DNA of 64,000 nucleotides from Bacteroidia bacterium (lineage in GTDB: Bacteria > Bacteroidota > Bacteroidia > M30B66). A program made the position numbers and the translations under genes. Positions 1 to 45,575 of this stretch are shown here, in pieces (position 1 is the stretch's first letter; every line of letters begins with the position of its first letter). Location: positions 1-64,000 of the forward strand of contig OZ257142.1 of NCBI GenBank assembly GCA_965279035.1, read 5' to 3'. The notes under the pieces were generated by a model that worked only from the letters and a program-made list of their open reading frames with translations, made no database searches and was not told the origin of the DNA.

Positions 1-332
1 AAATGATTGAAGGCTGCAATTTTGCAGATCGTATTTATGTGCATACAAGTAGTAAAAGCGCGTTAGAATTTCTCGCGAATTTCGAACGGGCACATCTTCC
101 CGAAGATCTCATTCCTGAAATTATTTTCCTCGATATCAACATGCCCATTATGGATGGGTTTCAGTTTGCCGAAGAATTTGGAAAATCTTGTCCGAAGATT
201 TACGATAAAATCAAAATCGTATTTCTCACCAGCTCACTCAATCCGGTAGATCAAAAAAGAGCGATGTCGGTTCGTGGAGTTTATTCCTTTTTGAATAAGC
301 CACTAGGAAAAGATCATCTCGATAAATTGTAA
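1..332 (+). CDS. Response regulator receiver (REC) domain protein, 5' end cut by window edge
   Basis: IIFLDINMPIMDGFQF phosphoacceptor motif, LTSS, FLNKPL; the N-terminal acidic pocket is missing, so the gene starts before base 1. Confidence 0.9.
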   Translation, partial: MIEGCNFADRIYVHTSSKSALEFLANFERAHLPEDLIPEIIFLDINMPIMDGFQFAEEFGKSCPKIYDKIKIVFLTSSLNPVDQKRAMSVRGVYSFLNKPLGKDHLDKL

Positions 333-472: not shown

Positions 473-1924
473 TTAGCGTTTCACTACTTGACTCAATGCT
501 TTTATAAAGCCTTCATCAATCTTAATGTATTCCAACATCCGATTGGATTTTTGGTTGAGTAATTCAAATTTCGAAAAGAGCTGACCAATTTTTTGGTCTA
601 CTTGACGAGCCGAAGAACTCATTTGTAATGATAAGATTTTGTAGAAAATAAGGGCATTTTCATATCCCATTTCATCATCAATCTCGCGGATTTTACGCGT
701 TACGCTCCGTAGCAAACTCGTTGCAGGATCGTATTTATTGATCATGGAATAATTCAAGGCCAATAACAACTTCACTTCAATTTCGGAATGTGGATAATTT
801 TTGAAACTGATGTCGTTGATGAGATTATTTAATATGTGAACGGCTTCCTGATATTTCTTCGCATAAAAGGCACTGGTGGCCATGTATTTCGAATAGTTGA
901 TATAATTCGGAATGTCGTTTTTATCGGGTTCGTAATTCGGAAGTAGCTTTTGATTTTGCTCGTACAGTTCGGTTTCAATACCTAATTCAACATATCGCTC
1001 AATTTTAGAGATAAGGAATTTGGTGGTGAAACAACAGTGATTAAACAAAAGGAATGAAGTCAGTTTTTTATCTACTTCCTCAAAATACTTAGATTCCTTC
1101 TTCGGCAAGTTGAGCTTATGATAATATTCAAAAGCTAGATTATTGAAAACCAATTGAAGATGCTGATAATTCGTGTCCTTACTGTATGTTGTAAAGATCT
1201 TCTCCATTTTAGCTAGTAGATCTTCAACCGGCTCATCGTCTTTTAAAGCATCTGCATTAGGTACATACAAAGCAAATGTAACATCAACAATGGCCTTATA
1301 AACTTGTAAGTGATGCGATTCGTAGAGATTGCAAATGTGCGCCATCTCTTGCTTGATCAAGGATAGATAATCTACTTGTGGTTTGTTGCGTGATGTGTAA
1401 TAATCACCCACGGTACGCATGAACGTGTTAAGCAAATCTTCTGCTTTATCAAGCGCAATGGTATATGCAAGGTGTTTATTGTAAAGTTGAGTGTATTCGT
1501 AATACTTTGGCGAGTTTACGTGTAACTTCTTTAAAGCACTATACACACTCGACAACTCATAAGGCATGTCGTAATTCTGAAGTTCAGATTCTAACTTCGA
1601 TAAAATGGCAATGGCTGTATCGCGATGTGTATCGTAAATAAGCGTTGGAATATTGGCCACTTTACGTAACAAGTCGATGATTGGAGTCGACATGTTATTG
1701 GTTAGAAAATCCTGAATCTTATCAAATAAACGCGACTTCAACGTATAGTAAGCGCTAGTGTTAACGCTTAGCATTTCTTGAATTTCTTCGTCGTTGTATT
1801 TATTCTCCCGATATAACTTCAGGAGTCTAAGATACTTGTCTGCCTTGGTTTCAATAAACTGTTGACACAGGTCATTGTACTCTTCTTCCTTGAGCTGCAG
1901 GACAATGCTCTTAAACTTGATCAT
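473..1924 (-). CDS. Hypothetical all-helical protein; possible N-terminal HTH plus TPR-like repeats (putative regulator)
   Basis: 483-aa ORF without signal peptide; EIQEMLSVNTSAYYTLKSRL resembles an HTH; amphipathic helical repeats such as YAKKYQEAVHILNNL. Confidence 0.55.
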   Translation of the reverse strand: MIKFKSIVLQLKEEEYNDLCQQFIETKADKYLRLLKLYRENKYNDEEIQEMLSVNTSAYYTLKSRLFDKIQDFLTNNMSTPIIDLLRKVANIPTLIYDTHRDTAIAILSKLESELQNYDMPYELSSVYSALKKLHVNSPKYYEYTQLYNKHLAYTIALDKAEDLLNTFMRTVGDYYTSRNKPQVDYLSLIKQEMAHICNLYESHHLQVYKAIVDVTFALYVPNADALKDDEPVEDLLAKMEKIFTTYSKDTNYQHLQLVFNNLAFEYYHKLNLPKKESKYFEEVDKKLTSFLLFNHCCFTTKFLISKIERYVELGIETELYEQNQKLLPNYEPDKNDIPNYINYSKYMATSAFYAKKYQEAVHILNNLINDISFKNYPHSEIEVKLLLALNYSMINKYDPATSLLRSVTRKIREIDDEMGYENALIFYKILSLQMSSSARQVDQKIGQLFSKFELLNQKSNRMLEYIKIDEGFIKALSQVVKR

Positions 1925-1979
1925 GCTCCCTTTTTGCCGACAATATATGTGATTTTTTCAATTACATATTCGATGTCGC

Positions 1980-4900
1980 TCAATTTTCATCAACAGTACT
2001 AAGAACATTTCCTTGCACTTGTTGGATGATTTCCCAGCTACCATCCTCATTCTGTTTCTCTATCACATAAAATCCAACTCCATTATCACCCCAACCGATG
2101 TAAGGAGTCCAATCAAGTTTGATAAAAATATCTCCTGCTGGCTCTGCTTTTAACACCACATTATCGCTGAATTCACCATAACGTCCTTCCAATCCACAGG
2201 TATTTGTTGCCATTATTTTGTAATAATACTTCACATGATCCACATCAACCGCTTCATCGATATAATAAGTTTGCTCATTACTTACTGTTTCAATCAAGAC
2301 AAAGTTGCTATTATCAGTCGAACGGAAAACCTTATATCCATTCACACGCTGTGGTTGAATCGTTGGGCGACTCCATTCGGTTAGAATAAATTGATTTTGT
2401 ACAACCGTCGATCGAGATGCATTCACTTGTTGATCTACAAACAAATTGGCAATTGGATCACTTAAGTCAAAGTCACTATCCGATTCAACGTGAGTTTGTC
2501 CATTTAATGCTTCTGCTTTAACTGAATACCGATATTTTACAGGACAAAATACAGATTGATCGTTATAGGTTGTTACATCACCGGGAACTGTTCCAAGATC
2601 AACAGTAATATTCACACTTTCTTCAGTTCGGAAAATCCGATAGGTTGATGGGATTTTACCAATGTATGGTGTCCAATTCACGTCAATGGTATTATCCATT
2701 CGAGTAATGGCTTCCACATTAATTGAACAATGCTCTATTAAACTATCCGATAGTACAGAATATCCGCAACGATCGACTGTTTCGAGTCTGTAGCAATACA
2801 CATTGTCGAAAGTATTGAGCCCATTATCATTATATGTGATTGTATGTGGATCGGTAATTTGAGCTTTCAGTTCGAAGATGCCTGTTTGAAGATTTTTTCG
2901 GTACAGGTTATAGCTTCCAAAATCTACTGCAATTGATTCTTCCCATTCGATGCTCACAGTTGATGGATCGACTACCGTAACACGCATAATTGGTGTTATT
3001 GGAGCGGGTAAGGTATCAAAAACTTGAATTAAAGATGGAACTGAAATCGTATCAGAACAACCGTGAATGCTAGTTACAGCTAAATCAACAGTGTAAAAAC
3101 CAGGATTATAATATACTTGAGTTGGATTTTCGGCCGATGAAGTTGATCCATTTCCAAAAGTCCAAGAATAAACTGGACTATCGAGTTGATACGACGTGTT
3201 TTCAAAACTCACCGATAATGGTGTACAACCTTCGGTTTGATTGATTGTAAAACCTGCAATTGGATTTTGATATGCTTCTACGTTATTTACAAATGCTGTG
3301 TCTTTACATCCAAACTCATTGGAAACAATCAATTTGATATCATAAACACCAGCATTGATGAAACTAAAAGCAGGCTCAAAATCAGTACTTGTTGAAATTC
3401 CTCCAAAGTCCCATGAATACAAAGTGCCACCTGTTGACTGATTATCAATTCCTAAAACTAAAGGAGCACATGAACTTGAATCGCTTAGTGTAAACTGAGC
3501 AACTGGGAAAGGATGAATTCCAAGTGGAACAGTCATACTATAGAATGCGCTACAACCTAAAGTATCTTGGGAGAAAAGGGTGACTACATAATTACCCACT
3601 TCGTTGTATATGAATGATGGGTTTTGTTCATGGCTCACGGTTCCTTCTCCAAAATTCCATTCCCATTCAACAGCACCATGGGAGAGGTCGGTAAATTGAA
3701 CAGAATTACCAACACAAGAGGAAAGTGAAGAAGCACTAAATGAAGTTGCTGGACCAAGCACAGTAACATATTGCAATCGCATTAAAGTATCAGAGCAACC
3801 ATTTGCATCTGTAACAGTGAGTTCGATATCATAAACTCCTGGAGAATCATATAGTTTGGTTGGATTATCAATGGTGGCATTGGTTCCATCACCAAAATCC
3901 CAGAACCAAGAAACCGCATTTGAAGAACTATCTACAAATTCTACAACCGAAGGTGCACAATTGGCTGGAGTTGGTGAAACAAAGTTTGCTTGAGGTCCAA
4001 TAACATGGATTGGAACTACTAAATGAGCAGTGTCTCTACAATTTGCTGATGAAGTAACAACTACATACGCATCAAAAACTCCATTTTGAGTATATACGTG
4101 ACTCGGGTTTGCGAGTGATGATGTGCCTCCATCCCCAAAATGCCATTGCCAATCAACATTGCCATCCATAGATGCGCTAAACTGCACTGGAAGCGGATTG
4201 CATTGTCCAACATAAGCTGCAGAAGCAGAAGCTTGAAAACGTGCTGGTCCTACTTTAGTAATACTCGAAGTACAACCAAATGCAGTAACAATCGATAGTG
4301 TTACAGAATCTGTTGGTATACTGTTATAAGTAATGAGTGGGTTTTGTTCTGTTGATGTAATACCGTTTCCAAAATCCCATAACCAAGAAGTAGCTCCTTC
4401 ACTTAAATCGTGGTATTGAACAGTGTATGGAACACATAATCCTGATTGAGTAAAATCGAAGTTTGCAGTTGCTCCATGCACCGTAATAACTTGTGGATAG
4501 GTGGAAGCAACAACACAATTAGTTAAACCCAAATCGTGAATTTCTTGTACAAATCCATAAACTCCTGGAGTTGTAAATGTTCGAGTAATTGGTCCTGAAT
4601 AGGAAGATCCATTCCAAGTTCCCAACGAAAAACCTTGACCATCGATATACCAAGCAACAGAACCATTACTTGTATTTACCAATGTTGTAGTTAATGGTGC
4701 GCATCCTTCTGTAGGTCCACTGATGGTCCAACCATTATGAGGAGCAGCAGCATAAATAGTATGAGGTAAAGTATAGGAAACTTCACAACCCGAAGGATAA
4801 ATTACGGTTAACTCAACTGTATAATATCCTGACTCGGTATAGTAATGACTAGGGTTTGCTTCGTTCGATGAAGTGCTATCACCAAATTCCCAATGAAAAG

Positions 4901-7802
4901 TAAATCCGGGGTTTGCTGATAAGCTATTTATAAAATTAACAGTGTCATTACAAATGGCATTGGGAAAATCGATGTTCGGTAATGGAGGACTCACTTGAAC
5001 ACTTTTCATTCTGGAAGAGTGACATCCAAGTGTATCAACCATTGTCATTAGAATGTTGTATGCTGAATTTGCATTTGCAAAATCATTACTCGCATTGATA
5101 GCATGTGAAATAAATCCATCACTAAAAGTCCAAGTAATTGTGTCGATGATTCCAGGATTTAAAGCAGCAACATCTACTTGAGTATGGTTACAAAAGGCTT
5201 GCTGACTTATGGTAAAATCGGGCGTTCCACCTCCTAGCAATATGGATTGATTGTATTGGATTGTTTGTAATCCGATATTGGTATTTGCTGTGTAAAAAAC
5301 GGTGTATATACCGGGTGAGGTATATTGATGAATTGGGTTTTGTTCGGTTGAAGTTTCTCCATCACCAAAATTCCAACTTATCACGGTATGCGTTTCGTCT
5401 TGCTTAAAAAATCGGATGACCATAGGAGCACATCCTCTTAACGGTTCGAGCAAAGGTTCTCCTTCACTTGGGAATGAACCACTACTTGAAGTATCTTGAT
5501 CGACCGCAACAGAATTTGCTTGGAACGGCGTTCCAGCTGATGATAAACTACAATCGGGTGTTTCGATTGAGAGAGTTACTACATAAGATCCATTTACTTG
5601 ATAGGTATGTACAGGATTCTCTTCAGTGGATGTTGTTCCATCTCCAAAGTTCCAAGTCCAGCTTGTTGCAGCAGGATTTGTTGAATGGAATTGCACATCT
5701 TGAGGAAATACATTTCCAACATAGGTGCTTGTAAACGTAGCTTGACTTGTAGCGAAGTTCACTGAATTGAAACCTATATAGGAGAATACACAACCCGCAG
5801 CTGTCGTGGTGGTTAATCCCACATGGTGAACATTCGTATTGGGGAAAACGTGAACAGGAGTTTCTTCGGTTGAAGTTGTTCCATCACCGAAATCCCAAAG
5901 CCAAGAAACTGCATCACTCGTTGTATCAGTAAATGTTACCGGAAAAGGCGGACACATGCCGATTTCAACCATAAACTGAGGAGGAATTCCTTCAACGTGT
6001 ATGGTTTGATAATTTGGATAGAAAACCATGCAGGGTGAACCATTGTCGACAAGAAGCGAGACAACATAATCTCCTGCAGTTTCATATTCGTGAGAAGGAT
6101 TGCTTAATGTTGATGTTGTTCCATCTCCAAAATCCCATAAATAACTTTGTCCGGGTTGAGGAGTAATGCTAAATGATGCTCCAAATGGTGCACATACTGT
6201 AATTGCAGGCGGTGGAGTGTATGAGGCAACCTCATAATTCACATCTATATAATTATGCATCACTAAAGTGTCGATGCAGCCATTGGTTCCAGTTGCAATC
6301 AATGTTACATCATATGAACCTAATTCTGAATATGTATGTGAAGGGCTTGCTACAGTTGAAGTCGTTCCATCACCAAAATTCCACAAATAACTTGTTGAAC
6401 CAGTAGAAAAGTTTGTAAACTGAACATTCAAAGGAGGACAACCAACAGTATCAGATGCTGTAAATGTTGCAACTGGACTAATAACATTCACCGCTGAGTT
6501 TATGACCATTTGTGCATGGCATCCATCGGCAGAAGTAACTGTCAAACGGATTGGATAAACTCCAGGACTTGTATAAATGTGTACTGGTTCGAAATCCGTT
6601 GAGTTAGTTAAATCCCAGAATTCCCAAAAGTAAGTGGATGCCCCTTGCGATAAATTGTCTGTAACAACAGCTAAAGGAGCACATCCAGAAGTATTACTAA
6701 GTGTAAAGTTTGCACTTGGAACAGAGTAAGCATGAATTAGATTGGTTGCAGTTGAAGTATAGCTACAACCATTTTGCATCGTAACAGTTAGTGAAGGAGA
6801 ATAAACTCCAGCCGTATTATAGGATACCAATTGGGATGCACTACTTGATGTTTGACCATTTCCAAAAGTCCAACTGTATGAACTAGCATTACTAATATTA
6901 GAAGTGAATGTTGTTCCCAACGAAACACACCCTGAAACCAATGAAGCCTGAATTTGAGGATTAACCGCTGGATAAACAGTTACATAATTAGTTTGAACAC
7001 GACTTTTAGTACATCCAAATGAATTGGTAACAGTCAAGCTAACTGTATATGTTCCTGGATTTGAATACGTTTTAAATGGAGAAGTGGAAGTGGAAGTTGT
7101 TCCATCACCAAAATCCCATAAGTAAGCGCTTGCATTTATTTGACTTGGAGTAAATTGGAATCCAATTGATGGAGAACATGAAATGACATTATCAACACTA
7201 AAATCAGCATTGGGCAATTCATTAATAGTAATTGCTTGAGGCAGATTATATACTGTGTTACATCCAATTGAATTCGTTGCCAATAGTGAGACATTGTAAG
7301 TTCCTGCCTCACTAAATGCTTTTGTCGGATTTAATTGAAGTGAAGAAGTTCCATCATCAAAATCCCAGAAATAACTAACGGCTCCTGTTGTTTGATTACT
7401 AAATGTAAAACTGGTTTGTTGAATACAACCTGTTAAAGCAGACGAAGTAAAAATGACGTTAGGGCCAGGTAATGCAGTTAAATAATTATTTTGAGTAAGA
7501 GTGTCACGTTGTCCATTTGAAGCAATGGCTATAAGAGAAACACTGTAAGTTCCCGGATTGACATATACATTCTGAGGATTTGTAAGGGATGAAAAATTCC
7601 CGTTTCCGAAAATCCATTGGTATGTTGAAGCTCCGGTTGAAGTATTGGTAAAATTTACGCTAAATGGAGAACAACCTTGCAATGCAGAAACACTAAAACC
7701 AGCAACGGGAGTTTGTGCAACTAAGATTGCTTCAACTCCTGACAAAAGCAGAATGACTAATGTCAGTGAACGTAAATGTTTCGTGTAAAGGTTTATCCTC
7801 AT
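1980..7802 (-). CDS. Large secreted PKD-repeat protein (~19 PKD domains) with 3.5 C-terminal FN3-like domains and no T9SS CTD
   Basis: Signal peptide ending ILVA|Q; ~19 W(D/N/T)FG(D/N)G...P.H.Y...G.Y.V.L repeats; FN3-like W...Y..YR...Y.D...Y.Y repeats; ends abruptly at STVDEN. Confidence 0.9.
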   Translation of the reverse strand: MRINLYTKHLRSLTLVILLLSGVEAILVAQTPVAGFSVSALQGCSPFSVNFTNTSTGASTYQWIFGNGNFSSLTNPQNVYVNPGTYSVSLIAIASNGQRDTLTQNNYLTALPGPNVIFTSSALTGCIQQTSFTFSNQTTGAVSYFWDFDDGTSSLQLNPTKAFSEAGTYNVSLLATNSIGCNTVYNLPQAITINELPNADFSVDNVISCSPSIGFQFTPSQINASAYLWDFGDGTTSTSTSPFKTYSNPGTYTVSLTVTNSFGCTKSRVQTNYVTVYPAVNPQIQASLVSGCVSLGTTFTSNISNASSYSWTFGNGQTSSSASQLVSYNTAGVYSPSLTVTMQNGCSYTSTATNLIHAYSVPSANFTLSNTSGCAPLAVVTDNLSQGASTYFWEFWDLTNSTDFEPVHIYTSPGVYPIRLTVTSADGCHAQMVINSAVNVISPVATFTASDTVGCPPLNVQFTNFSTGSTSYLWNFGDGTTSTVASPSHTYSELGSYDVTLIATGTNGCIDTLVMHNYIDVNYEVASYTPPPAITVCAPFGASFSITPQPGQSYLWDFGDGTTSTLSNPSHEYETAGDYVVSLLVDNGSPCMVFYPNYQTIHVEGIPPQFMVEIGMCPPFPVTFTDTTSDAVSWLWDFGDGTTSTEETPVHVFPNTNVHHVGLTTTTAAGCVFSYIGFNSVNFATSQATFTSTYVGNVFPQDVQFHSTNPAATSWTWNFGDGTTSTEENPVHTYQVNGSYVVTLSIETPDCSLSSAGTPFQANSVAVDQDTSSSGSFPSEGEPLLEPLRGCAPMVIRFFKQDETHTVISWNFGDGETSTEQNPIHQYTSPGIYTVFYTANTNIGLQTIQYNQSILLGGGTPDFTISQQAFCNHTQVDVAALNPGIIDTITWTFSDGFISHAINASNDFANANSAYNILMTMVDTLGCHSSRMKSVQVSPPLPNIDFPNAICNDTVNFINSLSANPGFTFHWEFGDSTSSNEANPSHYYTESGYYTVELTVIYPSGCEVSYTLPHTIYAAAPHNGWTISGPTEGCAPLTTTLVNTSNGSVAWYIDGQGFSLGTWNGSSYSGPITRTFTTPGVYGFVQEIHDLGLTNCVVASTYPQVITVHGATANFDFTQSGLCVPYTVQYHDLSEGATSWLWDFGNGITSTEQNPLITYNSIPTDSVTLSIVTAFGCTSSITKVGPARFQASASAAYVGQCNPLPVQFSASMDGNVDWQWHFGDGGTSSLANPSHVYTQNGVFDAYVVVTSSANCRDTAHLVVPIHVIGPQANFVSPTPANCAPSVVEFVDSSSNAVSWFWDFGDGTNATIDNPTKLYDSPGVYDIELTVTDANGCSDTLMRLQYVTVLGPATSFSASSLSSCVGNSVQFTDLSHGAVEWEWNFGEGTVSHEQNPSFIYNEVGNYVVTLFSQDTLGCSAFYSMTVPLGIHPFPVAQFTLSDSSSCAPLVLGIDNQSTGGTLYSWDFGGISTSTDFEPAFSFINAGVYDIKLIVSNEFGCKDTAFVNNVEAYQNPIAGFTINQTEGCTPLSVSFENTSYQLDSPVYSWTFGNGSTSSAENPTQVYYNPGFYTVDLAVTSIHGCSDTISVPSLIQVFDTLPAPITPIMRVTVVDPSTVSIEWEESIAVDFGSYNLYRKNLQTGIFELKAQITDPHTITYNDNGLNTFDNVYCYRLETVDRCGYSVLSDSLIEHCSINVEAITRMDNTIDVNWTPYIGKIPSTYRIFRTEESVNITVDLGTVPGDVTTYNDQSVFCPVKYRYSVKAEALNGQTHVESDSDFDLSDPIANLFVDQQVNASRSTVVQNQFILTEWSRPTIQPQRVNGYKVFRSTDNSNFVLIETVSNEQTYYIDEAVDVDHVKYYYKIMATNTCGLEGRYGEFSDNVVLKAEPAGDIFIKLDWTPYIGWGDNGVGFYVIEKQNEDGSWEIIQQVQGNVLSTVDEN

Positions 7803-7810
7803 CTTCTGTA

Positions 7811-8326
7811 CTATTGATCGCCCATTCCTTCTGCTACCAAGGTTACTCTACCTTTTTCTTCAGGTAAAGGCTTGTCGTTTAATCCTGTTGCTTTCACTTG
7901 ATATACATATACATCCGTACTTGTAATTTTTTCTCCTTGATAAGTACCATCCCATAGATTAGTAATGTCTTCTGATTCGAAAACCATTTCTCCCCAGCGA
8001 TTGAAAATCTGAAGCTTAAATTGTTTAATTCCTTCGGCTTTTACTCCAAAAAAGTCGTTAATACCATCTCCATTGGGTGTAAATGCACTTGGTATATACA
8101 TCGTTGGTTTTGGCATCGCCTCAGCAATATTTGATAAACTGCTTGTTGAGGCATTGGACATTTTGTAAGCGGTAATTCGATATCGTTTGTTCCCGTTTTG
8201 TGGAGTTGGTTGAAGTTGTTGAGCACTGATACTTCCCATGCAGAACAACATGATTAAGCCAAAAAACCCTCTTGTCAGAGTGGTCCGAGCTTTTCGGGTC
8301 TTTTTAAATGTTGTAGATGCTTCCAT
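7811..8326 (-). CDS. Small secreted protein consisting of two FN3-type strands plus a T9SS type-B (gliding motility-associated) C-terminal domain
   Basis: Signal peptide ISA|QQ; YRITAYK...SSLSN followed by IPSAFTPNGDGINDFF...IFNRWGEMVF...WDG...DVYVY...KGRVTLV. Confidence 0.9.
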   Translation of the reverse strand: MEASTTFKKTRKARTTLTRGFFGLIMLFCMGSISAQQLQPTPQNGNKRYRITAYKMSNASTSSLSNIAEAMPKPTMYIPSAFTPNGDGINDFFGVKAEGIKQFKLQIFNRWGEMVFESEDITNLWDGTYQGEKITSTDVYVYQVKATGLNDKPLPEEKGRVTLVAEGMGDQ

Positions 8327-8607
8327 AAGTACTTCTCATACTCGTTGAAGCCTATTACTGTTACCGAATCAAGCTCAAGCAATGAAGGAAACCTTTCAGG
8401 TGTAAGTTTTTTATGCGCTTTCTAAGACCTCATGTTCTATCTGTTTATTTTTCAGGATATTAACTTGTCATTTGTACTTTATTAGCCTAATTTTTTATGT
8501 AAGTTGAAAGGTGATTTTCATTTTATTGATCAAATCTGATTTCAATTTCAGAAAGCATTTCGGCATTCGGCAGAAAAAGTGTTAATTCGTAAAAGAGCTA
8601 TCGCGGA

Positions 8608-9771
8608 ATGCAATCGGTACCATTACATCTGATTATACCTGAAGAAGAAAGTGCTGGAGTTGAACTACTCAAAAAGGCATTTATTCCTCTCAATGGCGCA
8701 TTCAGTTTGAGTATTGTTAATAGCGATCTTCAATTAAGTAATCAAATTGAACTTGGAATTCGCATAGCAGTTTATGCTGGAAAACCCGATTATCTTAGTT
8801 GGCAAGAATGCGCTCGTCGACTTCGACAACAATCCCCAGAGGCCATTTTTATATTGATTTCGGATGATGAAAGTACTTCTTCGGCCATAACACAAGGAGC
8901 CGATTTACTCATCCGATTTACAGAAACCGAAAGCTTACCTCAAATCATCGGTGCCTTTTTAAAAAGACATTCTGTTAAAACGATTCAAGTAATTAAACCA
9001 AGTATTGATGTTGAGAATTCCGGTGAAAGCCTTAGTCAGCTTCAAGAAAAAAATAAGGAACTCGAAAAAATCAACTACGAACTTGATCGTTTTGTTTATT
9101 CTGCCTCGCATGATTTGAGATCACCATTGACTTCCGTTTTAGGCTTGTTAAACTTAATGCGTGAAGAAGTAAAAGATGATGGCACACATCATTTGGTTGC
9201 ATTAATGGAAGAAAGTATTCTCAAACTTGACAATACCATTCGAGACATTGTTGCCTATTCAAGGAACAACAGAACTGAAATCACCTTTGAGCCTGTTCGA
9301 ATTAAATCAATAGTAGATGATATCATCAACAATTTACGGTATCTCGAAACAGGAGATTTCAAAATTCCAGATCAAATTACCGTAATAGATTCGTCTGTTT
9401 TCCCTTGCGATCGTAATCGACTTCAAATTATCTTAAACAACCTTCTAGCAAACGCGATTCGGTATAGGCACCCAGCTCGAAAACCAAACATTATTGTTGA
9501 TTCCAAATTAAAAGGACAAATTGTAGAGATTACTGTTAGCGATAATGGAATTGGAATAAACGAACAACATATTGGTAAAATCTTCGATATGTTTTACCGA
9601 ACTGCCGATACTAGCGCCGGTTCCGGTTTGGGTTTATACATCGTGAAAGAAACAATCAAAAAATTAAATGGCAGTATTGAAGTGCGTTCACGCGTAAACG
9701 AAGGAACAACTTTCGTAATTACCTTACCACTTTCTCTTCATTCATCAATTAAAACGGGTGGAAATGAATAA
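8608..9771 (+). CDS. Cytoplasmic sensor histidine kinase with degenerate N-terminal receiver-like domain
   Basis: H-box FVYSASHDLRSPL, N-box NLLANAIRY, DNGIGI, IFDMFYR, GSGLGLYIV; no TM segment. Confidence 0.92.
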   Translation: MQSVPLHLIIPEEESAGVELLKKAFIPLNGAFSLSIVNSDLQLSNQIELGIRIAVYAGKPDYLSWQECARRLRQQSPEAIFILISDDESTSSAITQGADLLIRFTETESLPQIIGAFLKRHSVKTIQVIKPSIDVENSGESLSQLQEKNKELEKINYELDRFVYSASHDLRSPLTSVLGLLNLMREEVKDDGTHHLVALMEESILKLDNTIRDIVAYSRNNRTEITFEPVRIKSIVDDIINNLRYLETGDFKIPDQITVIDSSVFPCDRNRLQIILNNLLANAIRYRHPARKPNIIVDSKLKGQIVEITVSDNGIGINEQHIGKIFDMFYRTADTSAGSGLGLYIVKETIKKLNGSIEVRSRVNEGTTFVITLPLSLHSSIKTGGNE

Positions 9772-12320: not shown

Positions 12321-15300
12321 TTATTGCTCCACCATTTGTCCGTGGCAGTTTTTGTATTTCTTGCCACTACCGCATGGACATTGATCATTACGCCCCACTT
12401 TGGGTTCTACTTTAACGGGTTGCGAACGTAGAGCTTCGGCATTGGTGTTCAAATGTTCAGGAATTTCGCTGCGACTCGTTTGAAGTTGTGGCATTGGTCT
12501 CGGTGCTGGTGCTGCAGGAGCAACACGCGGTGCGGATGGGGCTTGTGCTTGTTCAGGATTGGCAGCAGGAAGATTTCCTTTCATTAAGAACTGGGTAATT
12601 TCTTTTCCCACATCTCCCAACATCTGTTTAAACAAATTGAACGATTCCAACTTATAAATCAAGAGTGGATCTTTTTGCTCATAAACAGCATTCTGAACCG
12701 ATTGCTTCAACTCATCCATTTCGCGTAAATGCTCTTTCCAAGCATCGTCGATCATGGCAAGTGTGATCATCTTTTCTAAGGCATTCACCACTTCACGCCC
12801 TTTTGAATCAAAAGCTTTTTTCAAATTCACTAAAACCTGAATCGTTTTCAATCCATCAGTAATAGGAATCAAAATGTTTTCATATTGATGACCTTGGCTT
12901 TCGTAAACTTGAGTGATAACAGGAAGTGCCATTTGAGCTATGTGCTCCGATTTGCGGCGGTAAAAAGTCATCACTTCGTGATACAGCACATCGGCCAAAT
13001 CATGCGACTTTTCTTTCATGAAACTATCATGAGAAATGCCCGTGCTCATAGAAAAGATGCGAATAACTTCTAATCTAAATCCTTCAAAGTCGCGCACATC
13101 TTGGTATTCTTCCACCGTGCTTTCGCAAGCCTCCAAAACCATGTTGGCAATATCAACCGCTAAACGATCGCCGTATAAAGCATTCCGACGACGACGATAA
13201 ACAACCTCACGTTGAGAGTTCATCACATCATCATATTCCAACAAGCGTTTACGAATTCCGAAGTTGTTCTCTTCTACTTTTTTCTGTGCACGTTCAATTG
13301 AGCTGGTAATCATACCGCTCTGAATCACTTCCCCTTCTTTCATTCCAAGACGGTCCATAATTCGAGCAATCCGGTCAGAACCGAACAAACGCATCAAGTC
13401 ATCTTCCAATGAAACGAAGAATTGAGATGAACCTGGATCTCCTTGACGACCAGCACGACCACGTAACTGACGGTCAACACGACGACTCTCGTGACGTTCA
13501 GTACCAATAATCGCTAAACCACCAGCGTCTTTCACTCCTGCGCCTAACTTAATATCGGTACCACGACCAGCCATATTGGTAGCAATGGTTACTGTGGATG
13601 CTTGTCCTGCTTCGGCAACAATTTCAGCCTCGCGTTGGTGCATTTTCGCATTCAAAACATTGTGCTTAATGCCTTTTAATTTCAACATGCGGCTGAGCAA
13701 TTCTGAAATTTCAACCGATGTAGTACCAACTAATACTGGACGACCTTTAGCTGTTTCTTCAACAATGACATCAATAACTGCATTGTATTTCTCACGCTTT
13801 GTTTTGTAAACCAAATCTTCGCGGTCTTTCCTAGAAATTGCACGATTGGTAGGTATTACAGCCACATCGAGTTTATAGATATCCCATAACTCACCTGCTT
13901 CTGTTTCGGCAGTACCGGTCATACCAGCCAACTTGTTATACATCCGGAAATAATTCTGCAATGTAACCGTAGCATAGGTTTGAGTTGCCGCTTCGATTGT
14001 TACATTTTCTTTCGCTTCAATGGCTTGATGTAATCCATCGCTATAGCGACGACCATCGAGGATACGACCTGTTTGCTCATCAACAATCTTCACTTTTCCA
14101 TCCATCACGACATATTCCACATCCATTTCGAAAAGTGTGTAGGCTTTAAGAAGTTGATTGATGGTATGAATACGTTCCGATTTAATAGCAAAATCGCGTA
14201 AAAGCTGATCTTTCTGATCTATTTTATCTTCGTCAGATAAAGATGATTTTTCAATAGCTGCGATTTGAGTTCCTACATCCGGTAAAACAAAGAACTGAGC
14301 ATCTTCGCTCACTCCAGTGATGAGTTCTAATCCTTTCTCCGTCATTTCGATGGAGTTGTTTTTCTCATCAATCACAAAGAAAAGCTCGGTATCTACTTTA
14401 TGCATTTCGCGACTTTGGTCTTGCATGTAGAAATTCTCCGTTTTCTGAAGTAATTGTTTTACTCCCGGCTCACTAAGGTATTTGATTAAAGCTTTATTCT
14501 TTGGAAGTCCACGATGGGCACGTAACAAGGCCATTCCTGCTTCCTTTTCATTTTGACCAAACAATTTTTTTGCATCTGCCAAAGCCGTATTGATGTAATT
14601 CCGTTGAGCAGTTACAAGCTTTTCGATTCGTGGTTTTAATGCAAAGAATTCTTGGTTATCTCCTTTGGGTGTAGGACCAGAAATGATTAATGGTGTACGA
14701 GCATCATCCACTAAAACTGAATCGACCTCATCGACGATAGCGTAATTATGACCGCGTTGCACCAATTCTTCGGGACTGCGGGCCATGTTATCGCGTAGAT
14801 AATCGAAGCCAAATTCGTTGTTCGTACCAAAGGTAATTTCGGCAGCATAGGCAGCACGACGTTCTGCTGAGTTCGGTTGATGTTTATCGATACAATCTAC
14901 ACGTAAACCATGGAATTCGTATAAAGTACCCATCCATTCAGAGTCACGACGAGCCAAGTAATCGTTCACGGTAACAAGGTGAACACCTTCGCCCGATAAG
15001 GCATTGAGGTAAACGGGAAGCGTTGCTACCAAGGTTTTTCCTTCACCAGTAGCCATCTCAGCAATTTTCCCTTTATGTAACATGATACCACCAATGAGCT
15101 GAACATCGTAGTGAACCATATCCCAGATTACACGATTTCCTGCTGCAGGCCAGTTATTCAAATAGGTAGCTTTATCACCTTGGATGCTGATATAATCTTT
15201 CTTAATCGAAAGATCGCGATCCATTTGTGTAGCATTTACTTCTAAACTAGGATTTTCGGTAAAACGACGAGCAGTTTCGCGCATTACGGCAAAAGCTTCA

Positions 15301-15638
15301 GGTAAAATTTCCAAAAGCTTCACTTCTATTTTTTCATGAATCTTCTTTTTAATCTTATCGATTGAATCGAAGAGTGTTTCTTTTTCATTGAAGTCCATGT
15401 CCACCTCAAGTTCCACACGGCTCATTAATGCAGCAATTTCATCCCGCTCAGCCTGAACAGCCGCTTGAATTGAAGCTCGGAATTCAGTCGTTTTTGAACG
15501 AAGCTCATCATGACTAAATGAAGCAAGCGTTGGATAAATGACATTAATTTTATCAACCAAAGGACGAATTTCGGCTAGGTCGCGATCGGCTTTGCTGCCG
15601 ACTAATTTTCCAAAGAGATTAGCGATCGTTTTGATCAT
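12321..15638 (-). CDS. secA: Preprotein translocase subunit SecA
   Basis: [58 protein letters not shown]-terminal SEC-C motif [13 protein letters not shown]. Confidence 0.99.
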
Positions 15639-15806: not shown

Positions 15807-18800
15807 TCAGACAGTTTTAACAAATCGCTTAACGATTGTATTTCCGTTAGAACGAATTAGTATTTGATATGAACCAGCAGCTAGATCTGCAATATGGATA
15901 AGCATTCGGTTTGTTCCTTGAGCTTGCATACGCACTTCAATTTTCCGCCCGCTTGCATCTAACACTTGAATGCTTCCCATTTCAGTCCCAGAAATCAATT
16001 CCAATACAACATAAGTAGATGCTGGGTTTGGATAAAGCTGAATCGAATTGTTTGCTATATTTTCTAGTGAAGTACAATCGATTACTTTAATAACATCTGC
16101 TGCTTGACTCGTGCATCCTTTTTCATTGGTATACGAATATGTGATATCGACATTTCCGGTAATATCGCTCGAAGTAAAGATTCCGTTATTAACTCCATTA
16201 CCAGAATAAACACCACCAGCAGGAGAACCACCACTAAGTGTAGCAGTGGTTTGCTTGTTACATATTTCTTCTGGACTTAAATCAAGACTAACGGTTGGAA
16301 GTGAATTAACAACAACCTCTTGCACTTCAGAATAAGCTGCACAATTCGAGGCATTGGTTGCTTTTAAAATATAGCTACCAGAAAGTTGAACATTCAAGCT
16401 GCCTTGTGTTCCGCCACTAATTGGATTTCCATCGCTCGACCAAGAGTAGGTTATTCCTGCAATTTGTGAATAATTCAAATTCACTTCGTCCCCTTGGCAA
16501 AAAGTAAGAGGCCCATCAGGAGTAACTACTGGAACGGTTGGAGTATTTCCAACACTTACTGATACAGGTGTTGAAGTACTAACACAATTATTTGGATCAG
16601 TTACAATAACAGTATAGTTTCCAGCACTTGTAGCAGAATAACTTACCTGTGTTGCACCCGAAATACCTGTCCCATTATTTTGCCATTGATACGATAATCC
16701 TGATCCAGCATTCGCATTCAATAAGAGTGCATTGCCATCGCATATTGCAGGCTGTCCGGTATAGGTGATTTCGGCTTGAACACCCGCAACATTCACATTG
16801 ATAGGAGCGGAAGTAGCGGTACATAAGTTTTGATCGGTAACAGTTACAGTATAACTGCCCGATTGACTCACATTAAACACATTGTTTACAACACCTGGTA
16901 TTGCAATTCCATTATTTAACCATTGATACGTGTACCCATTTCCAGAAGATGCCTGTAACAATACAGTTCCACCAATACAGAATGTTGTTGGACCGTTTGG
17001 TGTAATGATAGAAGCAGGAGCTGGATTAACAGTTACATCTATAGCAGAACTTGTTGTAGTACAAGCACCTGTGTTGGTGATTACTACGGTATAGCTTCCT
17101 GCAGCATTGGCGGTATAGCTAGGCTGAGTTGCCCCTGAAATAGTTGCTCCACCAACTTGCCATTGGTAAGTAAGCCCTGCACCCGTATTCGCATTTAAAA
17201 TAACAGAGCTTCCATGACAAATTCCTGTTGGACCAGCAGCTGTGATTACTGCAGATGGTGCTGCGATTATATTGACATTGGTTGCAGATGAAGTTGAAGA
17301 ACAATTTGCTCCTTGAGAAACAGTTACAGTATAATTTCCAGAAACAGTTGCCGTATAATTCAGTCCAGTTGCTCCCGAAATAGGTGTTCCATTTTGTGAC
17401 CACTGATAGGTAAGTCCATTACCAATTGGTGCACTAAGAGCAACGGTATTTCCTTGACATACTGTTGCATTTCCATTAACCGAAATTGTTGAAGTGGGAG
17501 GAGGTGTAGCATTTACAGACAAAGCAGGAGAGTTAGAAGAACAACCATTTGCAGTTATAGTAACAACGTAGTTTCCTGAAGTATTAGCTGAATAGGTAGA
17601 TTGAGTTGCACCATTAATTGGATTTGCATTATTCAACCATTGATAGGAATATCCTGTTCCTGTAGGCGCAGAAAGCGTTACAGTATTACCTTGACAAAAA
17701 GTAGTAGGACCACCAGCAGTAATGGAAGATGTAGGAGCTTGATTCACTGTTACGTTAATGGAGTTACTTGTAGCAGCACAAGCAACAGTGCTAACAAGAA
17801 CTGCATATGAACCAGCTTCAGTTGCTGAGTAACTAGTTGAAGATGCCCCAAATATTGGACTTCCTGCTAGTAACCATTGATAGCTTGCACCAGAAACTGG
17901 ACTAACATTAAGCGCCACATTACCACCAGCACAGAATGTTGTTGAACCGGTTGACGTTATGGTTGCTGTTGGGCCAGCTACTACAGTTAATACAATTGAA
18001 TTTGATGTTGCAGTACAAGTTGGACCATTTGATACAACGGCAGTATAAGTACCAGCTTGATTAGCTGTATATGTTGCTCCAGTTGCTCCAGAAATGTTAT
18101 TATTATTCAATTTCCATTGAATCGTATTTCCTGGTTCTGTGTTGATAGACAAAATACTAGAACTTCCTTGACAAATAGTTGTGTTTCCTGAAGCACCTAT
18201 GGAAGCTGTAAGGCTTGATACAACATCAATTTGAATGGAATTAGAAATAGACGAACAGCCTGATGCATTGGTAATAATCAATGAATAAGTACCTGCTTGA
18301 TTTGCTGAATACGAAGTTGAAGTTGCACCTCCAATATTGAGGTTATCTCGCTGCCATTGATAAGTTGAACCTGCTTGAGCTATTGTTGAAATTGAAATTG
18401 ATCCAGTACCACAAATGGTTGTACTAGCAGAAGTAATTGTAGCAGAAGGTGATTGAGCAGACGTTACGGTTATTGCATTACTTGTTGCTGTACATCCACT
18501 ACCATTCACAACATATAAGGTATAAGTTCCAGCTGATGCCGCTTGTAGTGTTGTTGATGTTTCACCAAGTAGATTAGCTCCATTCAATTTCCATTGATAC
18601 GTTAAGCCAGCAACTGTAGGAGCTGTTATCGAAACTGGATTTCCTCCGCAAATAATGGTCGAACCTGAAGCTGCAATTGTTGGAGCACTTAGATTACAAC
18701 CAACCGGAGTTCCTTCAATGGATAAATAAAAGGTACTGTTCGTTGTACTTGCATTTTCATCATACACGCGCAAGTAATACGTTTGACCAGGAGTTAGTGT

Positions 18801-21224: not shown

Positions 21225-21244
21225 TTTGGTCAGATTAAGGGGGG

Positions 21245-21252
21245 CAAATGTA
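21245..21252 (-). promoter_or_regulatory. -7 promoter element
   Basis: TACATTTG on minus strand inside the ORF-track 5' extension, supporting a start at 21224. Confidence 0.65.
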
Positions 21253-21394
21253 ATACACATACCCCTAAAGATATAGTGGTTAATTGTTAAAAATTAAAAT
21301 GGAATGAAAGGATGAATTTACAATTCACATAAATCCGCACTAAATGCTATAAATGCAATAAAAAACCAATTGATTCTTTCGTGTTCAAATGCCA

Positions 21395-41159: not shown

Positions 41160-41635
41160 TATCTGGAAATGATTAGCCGCTGAACGCCCAACACTTCTTT
41201 ATTTTCAGCGTAAATCCGACAGAAGTAAATGCCTGCTGATAAATGGTCCAAGTGGAGATTCTCCGTGTGCTTGATTTCGCGTTTGACGAAGGATCCGCTA
41301 TGCAACGTGCGCCCGGTAATATCAATTATTTGAAAAGTGAGATTGCCAGCTTCAGCGGTACTAATGTTTAGAGTAAATATCCCTTTGTTGGGGTTGGGAT
41401 AAATGTCTACTTCAGTCTTTGCATCTTGTTTTCGTTGCGGTTTTACTTCTGCTCCTGCAAGCCTTGCCCCAGATGGTTCATCTATATAGGGATACCGATG
41501 GTAAATCGTATCGCCCCGAAGCTGCCGCGCGGCCATTGCGTAACTCTGAATACTGGACGGCACGCGGGATAAAAATTCGAGCTGTTGTTTCTGAACAGAA
41601 TCTATTTGCAGCCAGGTAAGGGAATCTTCTATCAT
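41159..41635 (-). CDS. Orphan C-terminal fragment 4 (type B) of the large protease-like protein: helical segment plus CTD, no signal peptide
   Basis: MIEDSLTWLQIDS...IQSYAMAARQLRGDTIYHRYP...IYPNPN aligns with LLRDSLTWLTIDT...VQQYALAVLQLRGDTTIEHYP...VYPNPN of 49116..55448. Confidence 0.8.
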   Translation of the reverse strand: MIEDSLTWLQIDSVQKQQLEFLSRVPSSIQSYAMAARQLRGDTIYHRYPYIDEPSGARLAGAEVKPQRKQDAKTEVDIYPNPNKGIFTLNISTAEAGNLTFQIIDITGRTLHSGSFVKREIKHTENLHLDHLSAGIYFCRIYAENKEVLGVQRLIISR

Positions 41636-41661
41636 GTCGAGAGTAAGGTAGATATAATCGG

Positions 41662-43586: not shown

Positions 43587-43612
43587 GTCGAGAGTAAGGT
43601 AGATATAATCGG

Positions 43613-45549: not shown

Positions 45550-45575
45550 ATCCAGGTAAAGGTCGGTATAATCGG

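What the first reader, a model, noticed from the sequence alone, without database searches (positions are those of the whole stretch)
1980..8326. Split T9SS cargo: sorting signal supplied in trans by an upstream gene that completes a broken FN3 domain
Seen: the three complete FN3-like repeats of the 1940-aa PKD protein run W...Y..(Y/F)R...(T/Y)Y.D then Y.Y(R/S/K)....S (TYNDNG..YCYRLETV; TYNDQS..YRYSVKA; YYIDEA..YYYKIMA). The fourth stops exactly after the D strand (LSTVDEN*), and the protein has no CTD. The gene 8 bp upstream has its own signal peptide, then KRYRITAYKMSNASTSSLSN (the two missing strands), then a type-B CTD. Gene order is permuted (tail first) and both genes have separate signal peptides, so this is not a frameshift. 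Established: T9SS export needs a CTD, and FN3/Ig folds can be completed by donor strands. Inference: the two proteins assemble in the periplasm by beta-strand complementation and the small one acts as a secretion/anchoring adaptor, a piggy-back export route I have not seen described.
Basis: partly seen in the sequence, partly recalled or inferred. Interest (0 to 1): 0.88.

Follow-up and report, generated by a model that had tools for sequence, protein, structure and literature searches.

The report
Split secretion cargo with tail in trans
A giant surface-protein gene has lost its export tag together with the last two strands of its final domain, and a small separate gene supplies exactly those strands plus the tag, an arrangement kept across a whole group of Bacteroidota and likely to let the small protein carry the giant one out of the cell.

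Summary
The 171-aa protein has a signal peptide, a conserved hairpin (KRYRITAYK…SSLSN) and a type-B T9SS C-terminal domain (CTD). Eight bases downstream starts a 1940-aa protein with 17 PKD domains, no CTD, ending in the E-F loop of its fourth FN3-like domain.

It is not an artefact. Of 100 homologues, 82 stop at the same point and 17 carry the fused hairpin and CTD; one tree branch separates the two forms. On a fused homologue the large protein ends at residue 1769 and the small one begins at 1774.

In one order of 146 genomes, 120 hold both genes, 13 neither, 3 only the small and 10 only the large, and the genes are mostly unlinked.

A complex model places the hairpin as the missing F and G strands: ipSAE 0.89, best control 0.00. 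This may partly reflect likeness to solved FN3 folds.

Best reading (about 0.7): the two assemble in the periplasm and the small protein provides the T9SS signal and surface anchor in trans. Export itself is untested. Six literature searches found no description. Rated a new variant of known kinds.

The parts
7811..8326 (-). Small gene (171 aa, P0001): signal peptide, then FN3 F-G hairpin, then type-B T9SS CTD. This is the proposed in-trans sorting and anchoring adaptor.
   Evidence: ORF and translation are. PF13585 scores 72.6 bits and TIGR04131 59.8 bits. 149 homologues at E<=0.001 were found in the 94-300 aa length band that was searched.
8222..8326 (-). Signal peptide of the small protein (aa 1-35). 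It probably cleaves before Q36, which is nearly invariant.
   Evidence: The n/h/c pattern is read from the sequence. Q36 is >=90% conserved in 40 homologues. No signal-peptide predictor was available.
8123..8188 (-). Hairpin KRYRITAYKMSNASTSSLSNIA (aa 47-68), the F and G strands missing from the large protein's last domain.
   Evidence: Y49, R50, S63, S65 and N66 are invariant in 40 homologues. The mean majority-residue share is 0.65, against 0.73 for the CTD and 0.24-0.26 for the signal peptide and linker. The hairpin aligns to strands F and G of fused homologues. The predicted interface covers aa 47-57 and 61-73.
7880..8095 (-). Type-B CTD (CHU_C / Bac_Flav_CTERM), aa 78-149.
7803..7810 (.). 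8-bp spacer between the stop of the small gene and the ATG of the large gene. The two are probably one operon.
   Evidence: The spacer is 11 bp in three close relatives and 70 bp in G040.
1980..7802 (-). Large gene (1940 aa, P0002): signal peptide, 17 PKD domains, three complete FN3-like domains and one truncated one. It has no CTD.
   Evidence: 82 homologues end within 0-11 aa of the same point.
3012..7712 (-). PKD-domain array (about aa 31-1597).
   Evidence: PF18911 hits with 17 stretches at E 2.3e-203.
2151..3011 (-). Three complete FN3-like domains (about aa 1598-1884).
   Evidence: The repeat pattern is visible. A fused homologue's equivalent domain models as a 7-strand sandwich, and Foldseek hits tandem FN3 chains.
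1983..2150 (-). Truncated fourth FN3-like domain (aa 1885-1940: strands A, B, C, C', E only), ending in the acidic tail VDEN.
   Evidence: This stretch aligns to residues up to 1769 of fused P0243, just before strand F. In the complex job, chain 1 has pLDDT 86-87 with the partner and 64 with unrelated partners. 71 of 82 split homologues have 2 or more acidic residues among their last four.

Best explanation
This is an ancient gene fission of a conventional type-B T9SS cargo, cut in the E-F loop of its last FN3-like domain.

Both products cross the inner membrane through Sec on their own signal peptides. In the periplasm the N-terminal hairpin of the small protein (strands F and G) inserts into the five-strand remnant at the C-terminus of the PKD protein and completes the beta-sandwich. 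This rebuilds the topology of the fused ancestor, apart from one open loop.

The small protein's type-B CTD is then recognised by the T9SS translocon and a PorP/SprF-type carrier. The whole complex is exported and held on the cell surface through that carrier.

What is shown here: the anatomy, conservation of both halves, fused relatives with abutting boundaries, co-occurrence in genomes, and a confident predicted interface. What is inferred: binding in the cell, export as a complex, and surface anchoring.
For: (1) Anatomy.

(2) Abutting boundaries. The C-terminal 421 aa of the large protein align to fused P0243 (from locus L004) residues 1375-1769, up to their last residue. Small-protein aa 45-150 align to residues 1774-1879 of the same protein.

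(3) Position of the break. In the AlphaFold2 model of that fused C-terminus (mean pLDDT 81) the break falls between strand E (model residues 155-158) and strand F (167-175).

(4) Clean dichotomy among homologues. Of 100 homologues hit by BLAST, 82 have a tail of 0-11 aa, 17 have a tail of 118-146 aa and 1 was a partial match. On a 99-row tree one branch (SH-aLRT 99) separates split from fused forms, so a single change suffices.

(5) The hairpin is under selection. It holds 5 invariant columns in 40 sequences and is nearly as conserved as the CTD.

(6) Co-occurrence without linkage. In the order of G001 (146 genomes), 120 have both genes, 3 the small only, 10 the large only and 13 neither (Fisher p = 4e-10, uncorrected for phylogeny). 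Counting only hits in small ORFs gives 118/3/12/13 (p = 2e-9). In most of these genomes the genes lie on different contigs or about 100 kb apart.

(7) Adjacency in the same order. It is seen in the window, in 3 of 3 close metagenome loci and in G040. Eleven further small/large pairs share an identical longest-contig length.

(8) Genomes with fused forms lack a small orthologue. In four such genomes, 31 of 32 matches lie in open frames of 770 aa or more.

(9) Complex model. The score is 0.89 and the best of 3 controls 0.00. That mark was reached by 58 of 80 solved complexes and 2 of 110 mismatched pairs, and these counts hold only roughly because my own alignments were used. The runs agree in at least 93% of contacts and the partner's pLDDT is at least 80.

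(10) Changes specific to the split lineage. 92 of 96 small proteins have K or R in the two residues before the F-strand Tyr. None of the 17 fused forms does, and 15 of those 17 have Cys there. 71 of 82 split large proteins end in an acidic tail.

(11) Background from papers. Type-B cargo leave the translocon bound to carrier proteins that anchor them to the surface (passages of PMC10994853; abstract of PMC9143113). Orphan type-B CTDs can use a carrier encoded elsewhere (abstract of PMC12618676). An mCherry-CTD fusion is used as a T9SS model substrate (PMC10994853).
Against: No experimental or expression data exist for this pair.

Halves of one domain can score high in a complex model simply because complete FN3 folds are well represented among solved structures, so one search shows fit rather than binding.

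The co-occurrence statistic is not corrected for phylogeny. The 13 genomes lacking both carry neighbouring handles and may belong to a few clades.

There are 13 to 15 discordant genomes. MAG incompleteness may explain them, but that is not shown.

No PorP/SprF-like gene was recognised next to the pair (one search covers four neighbours only), and the window's whole genome is not held, so the presence of a T9SS in this organism was not checked.

It is unknown whether a non-covalent two-strand joint would survive passage through the translocon.

The tree is unrooted, so fusion of an ancestrally split pair cannot be formally excluded.
Confidence: 0.7

Rival explanations
1. The two proteins are functionally independent. 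The small protein is a minimal T9SS substrate or regulator, in the way that PorA of P. gingivalis is a small CTD protein whose CTD signals to PorY. On this reading the conserved hairpin is merely part of an extended type-B targeting region. The PKD protein would then stay in the periplasm or use another route.
For: PorA shows that a small CTD protein can have a regulatory role (abstract of PMC12152298). A histidine kinase gene lies divergently upstream of the pair and a receiver-domain ORF lies at 3..332. In G040 a response-regulator-like ORF sits directly upstream of the small gene. In most genomes of the order the two genes are unlinked.
Against: The hairpin matches exactly the two strands the large protein lacks, and the boundaries abut on fused homologues. 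The two genes co-occur. The small orthologue is absent where the fused form is present. The hairpin's confidence depends on the partner: partner pLDDT is 81-83 with chain 1 and 63 with an unrelated chain. PorA carries a type-A CTD (recalled; not stated in what I read), whereas this is type B. The neighbouring kinase gave only HisKA and HATPase hits in Pfam; its membrane topology was not analysed.
Confidence: 0.12
2. The two proteins do bind by strand complementation, but the purpose is not export of the complex. The small protein might cap or chaperone the open domain in the periplasm. Alternatively the complex might tether the translocon or carrier to a periplasmic PKD array.
For: All the binding evidence above applies. 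Nothing here shows where either protein ends up.
Against: The small protein keeps a full type-B CTD above both curated cut-offs, and the CTD is as conserved as in cargo. The fused relatives are ordinary CTD-bearing cargo. A 17-PKD array is typical of surface adhesins; this last point is general knowledge and was not tested.
Confidence: 0.12
3. The large proteins polymerise by strand exchange, as pilins do, and the small CTD protein only caps or anchors the fibre.
For: An open Ig-like domain awaiting donor strands is the principle of chaperone-usher pili (abstract start of PMC6615685 in the listing) and of type V pili (recalled). Some genomes have two split large paralogues and one small gene.
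Against: The mature N-terminus of the large protein begins directly with a PKD domain and shows no YR.TA...S.SN-like segment. Only the small family carries that motif outside fused proteins.
Confidence: 0.03
4. The arrangement is an artefact or decay: a misassembly, a frameshift, or a pseudogene pair.
For: None was found.
Against: Four per-run assemblies reproduce the region with 0 differences (one sample, possibly the source). 82 homologues stop at the same point and the lineage is deep, with identity down to about 28-34%. Both ORFs are intact and each has its own signal peptide.
Confidence: 0.01

Closest known systems
Conventional (fused) type-B CTD cargo of the T9SS. Examples are the fused homologues found here (L004/P0243, L010/P0244, P0164, P0178, P0203 and others) and, as the textbook case, SprB of Flavobacterium johnsoniae.
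   Same: The domain order is the same: signal peptide, PKD array, FN3-like domains, type-B CTD. The same hairpin-CTD junction is present (YR.TAY...S.SN...AFTPNGDG). The expected dependence on a PorP/SprF-type carrier is also shared (abstracts of PMC9143113 and PMC12618676).
   Different: Here the polypeptide is cut inside the last FN3-like domain. The tail is a separate secreted protein encoded upstream or elsewhere in the genome. The Cys found before the F strand in 15 of 17 fused forms is absent, and basic residues stand in its place.
Donor-strand complementation in chaperone-usher pili and Bacteroidota type V pili (FimA/Mfa1).
   Same: An incomplete Ig-like sandwich is completed by strand(s) from the N-terminal part of another secreted polypeptide. 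The principle is stated in the abstract start of PMC6615685 (listing).
   Different: Two strands (F and G) are donated rather than one. The donor is a dedicated adaptor, not the next subunit. No chaperone, usher or proteolytic priming is evident. The proposed purpose is attachment of a secretion signal, not polymerisation. The interaction here is predicted only.
Tat 'hitchhiker' co-export, in which a signal-less subunit is exported bound to a signal-bearing partner (recalled from general knowledge; not looked up).
   Same: The export signal is supplied in trans by a partner protein, and a folded complex is transported.
   Different: The membrane and machine differ: the outer-membrane T9SS. Both partners have their own Sec signal for the first step. 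The joint is one shared domain rather than a subunit interface.
PorA of Porphyromonas gingivalis, a small CTD protein with a regulatory role.
   Same: It is a small secreted protein that consists of little more than a CTD (abstract of PMC12152298).
   Different: PorA's CTD is type A (recalled) and signals to PorY. PorA is not described as completing a domain of another protein. The protein here has a type-B CTD and a hairpin that fits a specific partner.

Membership tests
T9SS type-B CTD (Pfam PF13585 CHU_C; NCBIfam TIGR04131 Bac_Flav_CTERM): small protein | The HMM score is above the curated cut-off and the domain lies at the C-terminus. | tested here: met
   PF13585 scores 72.6 bits against a cut-off of 27 (aa 78-149). 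TIGR04131 scores 59.8 bits against 35.
T9SS type-B CTD: large protein | Any CTD (type A or type B) is present at the C-terminus. | tested here: not met
   No PF13585, PF18962 or TIGR04131/TIGR04183 hit at E<=0.01. The protein ends 0 aa after the E strand.
T9SS cargo (either protein) | An N-terminal Sec signal peptide is present. | tested here: inconclusive
   Both N-termini show a basic n-region, a hydrophobic core and an A-Q site, and Q36 is conserved. No signal-peptide predictor was available.
T9SS cargo (either protein) | The organism encodes a T9SS (SprA/Sov, PorK-N, PorV or PorP/SprF). | not testable with these tools
   No whole genome is held for the window. Related genomes carry many type-B CTD proteins: 11-13 matches each at E<=1e-12 in G001-G003.
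T9SS type-B cargo | A cognate PorP/SprF-like carrier exists, often encoded next to the cargo. | tested here: inconclusive
   Four neighbouring ORFs have no PorP/SprF hit. The rest of the window was not scanned with family models. Orphan type-B CTDs are known to use a carrier encoded elsewhere (abstract of PMC12618676).
Fibronectin type III domain | The sequence-family model (PF00041) matches. | tested here: not met
   No fn3 hit for P0002 at E<=0.01. Precomputed PF00041 is listed for only 2 of the 120 listed homologues (P0163 and P0206).
Fibronectin type III domain | The fold is a seven-strand beta-sandwich (A, B, E / C', C, F, G). | tested here: met
   The AlphaFold2 model of the fused homologue shows 7 strands per domain. 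Foldseek's top hits are tandem FN3 chains (fibronectin, gp130, titin, contactin) at E 6e-9 to 1e-7 and probability 1.00. Whole-model TM-scores are low (0.23-0.33) because three domains are compared at once.
PKD domain array | PF18911/PF00801 score above cut-off. | tested here: met
   PF18911 scores 659 bits over 17 stretches and PF00801 scores 389 bits over 15 stretches.
Donor-strand complementation systems | The acceptor domain lacks C-terminal strand(s) of an Ig-like fold. | tested here: met
   The large protein ends between strands E and F.
Donor-strand complementation systems | The donor strand(s) physically occupy the groove. | tested here: inconclusive
   This is predicted only: ipSAE 0.89 against a best control of 0.00. 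That mark was reached by 58 of 80 solved complexes and 2 of 110 mismatched pairs. Contacts agree at 93% or more and partner pLDDT is 80 or more. No experiment exists.
Donor-strand complementation systems (chaperone-usher or type V pili) | A dedicated chaperone and usher, or proteolytic priming, and polymerisation. | not tested
   None was seen among four neighbours, and this was not searched for systematically. The pair is therefore not filed as a member, only as working in a similar way.

The most novel reading that the evidence does not exclude
A whole lineage of Bacteroidota exports giant PKD adhesins through the T9SS without a covalent sorting signal. A small plug-in adaptor completes the cargo's last FN3-like domain with two donor strands and brings the type-B CTD in trans. 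One adaptor can serve two different cargo proteins in the same cell: G138, G078, G079 and G084 each have two split-type large genes and one small gene. This would be the first piggy-back route through the T9SS and a natural split-FN3 joint strong enough to be pulled through a translocon. It might also allow regulated release or exchange of the adhesin at the surface.
Probability: 0.55. Interest if true: 0.88.

Novelty: new variant of a known kind. Interest (0 to 1): 0.8.

Why it matters
T9SS cargo are currently identified by a covalent C-terminal domain, both in genome annotation and in models of the mechanism. If a CTD can be supplied by a second polypeptide through domain completion, three things follow.

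(1) CTD-based censuses miss a class of very large surface proteins. 82 truncated homologues were found in one search, and 120 of 146 genomes in one order carry both genes.

(2) The translocon must accept a non-covalent complex, and force must pass through a two-strand beta joint. That constrains models of how cargo is pulled out.

(3) The pair offers a natural, compact split-domain tag: a hairpin of about 25 aa plus the CTD. It could attach arbitrary passengers to the T9SS or to the cell surface.

It is also a clean example of gene fission inside a domain, followed by long-term retention and adaptation of both halves. In the split lineage basic residues face an acidic C-terminal tail, and a cysteine found in the fused forms has been lost.

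Tried and rejected
Whole-genome context of the window: no genome is held. T9SS core genes and PorP/SprF genes of this organism could therefore not be searched.

Genome-contig scan with the small-protein alignment. Of the 80 loci kept, my motif search found the hairpin-CTD junction in 7: 2 small ORFs, 4 fused large proteins and 1 protein of 657 aa. The other 73 were not examined further. My motif missed L002's small ORF, which HMMER then found.

Metagenome scan with P0001. It returned 7 loci, of which 3 are close relatives (76-77% identity) and were used. The other 4 matched only the CTD (44-45% identity, or a 33-residue stretch) and were not examined.

Alignments A3 and A4. MAFFT shifted the C-termini of the large proteins by one repeat or dragged their tails to the end of the alignment. 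Those rows were dropped, and A5 (4 fused and 29 small sequences) was used for the structure job. The N-terminal half of that model therefore rests on 4 sequences.

RNA evidence: no RNA holder was listed. The four runs that were laid are contigs from one sample, possibly the source of the window. The small 'joints' reported there are 19-32-base matches to other contigs, read as other contigs sharing short stretches, and were disregarded.

Frameshift or readthrough: rejected. The tail gene lies upstream, has its own signal peptide, and the arrangement is conserved.

Polymerisation of the large protein through its own N-terminus: considered and thought unlikely (see rivals).

Mirror-tree or residue covariation between the two families: not attempted. 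Both interface segments are nearly invariant, and pairing across metagenome proteins could only be guessed from contig lengths.

Literature. Six full-text searches combined T9SS/type IX secretion with in trans, piggyback, hitchhik, donor strand, strand complementation, split/adaptor/non-covalent and 'lacking a CTD'. None gave a paper describing a CTD supplied by a second protein. Term look-ups inside PMC12618676 and PMC10202324 gave 0 occurrences. Subscription journals and supplementary files were not visible, so an existing description cannot be excluded.

The search of earlier findings: the first request had too many words. The corrected one was answered 'closed for now', so no earlier findings were seen.

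The second structure prediction, the search of protein representatives, the listing of cluster members and the protein-atlas search were not used.
Full report
WHAT IS THERE.

On the minus strand lie three consecutive ORFs: 7811..8326 (171 aa), 1980..7802 (1940 aa) and 473..1924 (483 aa).

The 171-aa protein begins with a basic and then hydrophobic N-terminus ending SISAQ|Q. It continues with NGNKRYRITAYKMSNASTSSLSNIAEA and ends in a type-B T9SS sorting domain. That domain hits PF13585 at 72.6 bits against a cut-off of 27 (aa 78-149) and TIGR04131 at 59.8 bits against 35.

The 1940-aa protein has its own signal-peptide-like N-terminus and 17 PKD_4 stretches. A C-terminal region of four repeats follows the pattern W..Y...Y.(I/V)...........(T/Y)Y.D.......Y.Y(K/R)(I/L/V).A......S. 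The fourth repeat stops at ...GNVLSTVDEN*, and no CTD model hits the protein.

The stop of the small gene and the ATG of the large gene are 8 bp apart. Only 55 bp separate the large gene's stop from the next gene, so no CTD is hidden downstream. Four per-run assemblies of one sample, which may be the source, each cover 1700-8700 in one contig with no differences.

IT IS A FAMILY, NOT AN ACCIDENT.

A search with the small protein, restricted to lengths of 94-300 aa, returned 149 proteins at E<=0.001. The first ~96 are 130-209 aa long (plus one 96-aa fragment) and share the whole architecture. 96 of those 97 carry the motif Y(R/I)(V/I).(A/G) ahead of the CTD; the exception is that 96-aa fragment.

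In an alignment of 40 of them, Y49, R50, S63, S65 and N66 are invariant. The hairpin (aa 47-68) has a mean majority-residue share of 0.65. The CTD scores 0.73, and the signal peptide and the linker after it score 0.24-0.26.

A search with the last 421 aa of the large protein returned 254 proteins, of which 120 were listed. I BLASTed its FN3-like region against those 120, the window's own protein and 2 fused proteins taken from loci. 100 gave a hit. Of these:
- 82 end 0-11 aa after the alignment (split type);
- 17 continue for 118-146 aa (hairpin plus CTD, fused type);
- 1 matched only partially and was left out of the tree.

No intermediate tail lengths occur. On a maximum-likelihood tree of the 99 regions a single branch (SH-aLRT 99) separates the 82 split from the 17 fused sequences. 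One change of state therefore suffices (quick search, unrooted, with several long branches flagged by the tool).

THE TWO HALVES FIT A FUSED RELATIVE EXACTLY.

In the fused protein P0243 (1893 aa, locus L004), the large protein's C-terminal region aligns to residues 1375-1769 and ends with its own last residue. The small protein's residues 45-150 align to residues 1774-1879. The boundaries abut with four residues between them.

An AlphaFold2 model of the last 284 residues of P0243 (mean pLDDT 81, pTM 0.57) gives two seven-strand sandwiches followed by the CTD. The alignment behind it held 4 fused and 29 small sequences, so its N-terminal half is thinly supported. The break point (model residues 160/165) lies between strand E (155-158) and strand F (167-175).

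Foldseek against the PDB returns tandem FN3 chains (fibronectin, gp130, titin, contactin) at probability 1.00, with low whole-model TM-scores as expected for three flexibly linked domains.

DISTRIBUTION AND LINKAGE.

Three close metagenome relatives (76-77% identity) show the same order: small gene, 11 bp, large gene. The two whose contigs reach far enough also have the 483-aa gene next. Eleven further small/large pairs from the two protein searches share an identical longest-contig length (7,956 to 218,816 bp). This indicates the same contig but is indirect.

In more distant genomes the genes are usually unlinked. In G001-G003 the small gene sits in a housekeeping neighbourhood with no PKD gene within reach. 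Each of those genomes has one split-type large gene on another contig, ending ...QYDYQE* or ...QYKYQE*. Each also has exactly one small orthologue, standing 12 or more orders of magnitude in E-value above the generic CTD hits.

Across the order that contains G001 (146 genomes), the small protein is found at E<=1e-24 in 123 and the large C-terminus at E<=1e-40 in 130. That gives 120 with both, 3 with the small only, 10 with the large only and 13 with neither (Fisher p = 4e-10). Two of the 123 hits lie only in large ORFs. Counting small ORFs alone gives 118/3/12/13 (p = 2e-9). These p-values ignore phylogeny, and the MAGs' completeness was not given. One genome in the tally, G092, is flagged unpublished.

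In G040 one pair is adjacent in the window's order: receiver-domain ORF, small gene of 176 aa, 70 bp, large gene of 1862 aa. All 9 large-gene ends that I cut out of five genomes stop 1-5 residues after the E strand. G138, G078, G079 and G084 each have two such large genes but only one small gene at the threshold used.

Conversely, in four genomes that carry the fused form, 31 of 32 matches to the small protein lie in open frames of 770 aa or more, and no small orthologue appears. The one exception is a 240-aa frame with an internal stop.

DO THEY BIND?

The complex job used large-protein aa 1780-1940 with a 32-row alignment and small-protein aa 37-171 with a 40-row alignment. It gave ipSAE values of 0.88, 0.89 and 0.89, and the best of 3 controls was 0.00.

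By the tool's calibration, that mark was reached by 58 of 80 solved complexes and 2 of 110 mismatched pairs. These counts hold only roughly, because my own alignments were used. The runs agree in at least 93% of contacts and the partner's pLDDT is at least 80.

The lowest-error pairs are 1912:53, 1913:52, 1915:50 and 1916:49. This is an antiparallel register between the hairpin's first strand and GVGFYVIEKQ (strand C). Residues 63-68 lie against 1882-1884 and 1799-1800. That is where strands F and G would sit.

Chain 1's pLDDT falls from 86-87 to 64 when the partner is replaced. The partner's pLDDT falls from 81-83 to 63 when chain 1 is replaced.

The caution is that two halves of a common fold may pass on likeness to solved FN3 domains. 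The result shows that the pieces fit, not that they bind in the cell.

SIGNS OF ADAPTATION TO THE SPLIT STATE.

In 92 of 96 small proteins at least one of the two residues before the F-strand Tyr is K or R (both in 66). In the 17 fused forms neither residue ever is, and 15 of 17 have Cys directly before the Tyr; I read this by eye from the strings printed. Most fused forms also have a second Cys after the S.SN motif.

Of the split large proteins, 71 of 82 have two or more acidic residues among the last four, and VDEN occurs in 41. An acidic free C-terminus facing a basic patch at the start of the donor hairpin is a plausible electrostatic clasp at the cut. This is inference.

HOW IT MOST LIKELY WORKS.

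Both proteins are exported by Sec. The hairpin of the small protein completes the open domain of the large one in the periplasm. The type-B CTD then targets the complex to the T9SS.

According to the literature, type-B cargo leave the translocon bound to PorP/SprF-type carriers that hold them on the surface (passages of PMC10994853; abstract of PMC9143113). Some type-B CTDs use a carrier encoded elsewhere (abstract of PMC12618676). The lack of a carrier gene among the four neighbours examined is therefore not a contradiction.

I put 0.7 on this reading. The main rivals are:
- the proteins are independent, with the small one acting as a PorA-like regulator (abstract of PMC12152298; two-component genes do flank the pair), at 0.12;
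- they bind, but not in order to be exported, at 0.12;
- pilus-like polymerisation, at 0.03;
- artefact, at 0.01.

COMPARISON AND NOVELTY.

The parts are known: the type-B CTD, PKD and FN3-like arrays, and strand complementation as used by pili. The combination is what I did not find described: a sorting and anchoring domain delivered by a second polypeptide that completes a broken domain of the cargo, kept for a long time in a diverse lineage, and possibly one adaptor for two cargo proteins. Six full-text searches and two in-paper term look-ups found nothing. Subscription journals and supplements were not visible.

I rate it a new variant of known kinds, with interest 0.8. Everything about function remains to be shown at the bench.

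Noticed in passing
G138, G078, G079, G084 (loci L096-L103): Each of these genomes has two different split-type large PKD genes (about 1850 and 1950-2040 aa), both ending right after strand E. Each has only one small hairpin-CTD gene at E<=1e-24. One adaptor may serve two cargo proteins.
   Followed up: partly
Fused homologues printed (P0243, P0244, P0164, P0178, P0203...): In 15 of 17 fused forms a Cys stands directly before the F-strand Tyr, and most have a second Cys after the S.SN motif, which suggests a disulfide stapling the hairpin. In the split small proteins K or R stands in place of the first Cys.
   Followed up: partly
window 473-1924 (-): A 483-aa protein without a signal peptide and without any Pfam or NCBIfam hit lies directly downstream of the large gene. 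It is conserved in the same place in two close relatives (L089, L091) but not in G040.
   Followed up: partly
window 3-332 (+), 8608-9771 (+); L104 157-564: Two-component genes flank the pair: a receiver-domain ORF, and a divergent HisKA/HATPase kinase. In G040 a receiver-domain ORF lies immediately upstream of the small gene. A regulatory link is possible.
   Followed up: no
window 39711-49110 (-) and 49116-55448 (-): Five tandem paralogous genes of 482-487 aa, each with a signal-peptide-like start and the N-terminal motif TF(A/N)(R/K)TY.DT.N, lie directly downstream of a 2110-aa protein gene.
   Followed up: no
window 15807-21260 (-): Another very large (1817 aa) secreted-looking protein gene sits next to the 1105-aa gene at 12321-15638, which resembles the SecA-like ORF seen in L090. 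Its domains and C-terminus were not examined.
   Followed up: no
L001 6836-8739: In G001 two tandem ~255-aa proteins with signal peptides and beta-barrel-like C-termini (...GIQVRF, ...GIQIGF) lie 1.6 kb downstream of the unlinked small gene. They were not tested for PorP/SprF membership.
   Followed up: no
G147-G150: In genomes with fused forms, dozens of large proteins (770-7222 aa) match the small protein from about residue 44-48 onward. An FN3-like F-G hairpin directly before a type-B CTD seems to be a common junction in this CTD class.
   Followed up: partly
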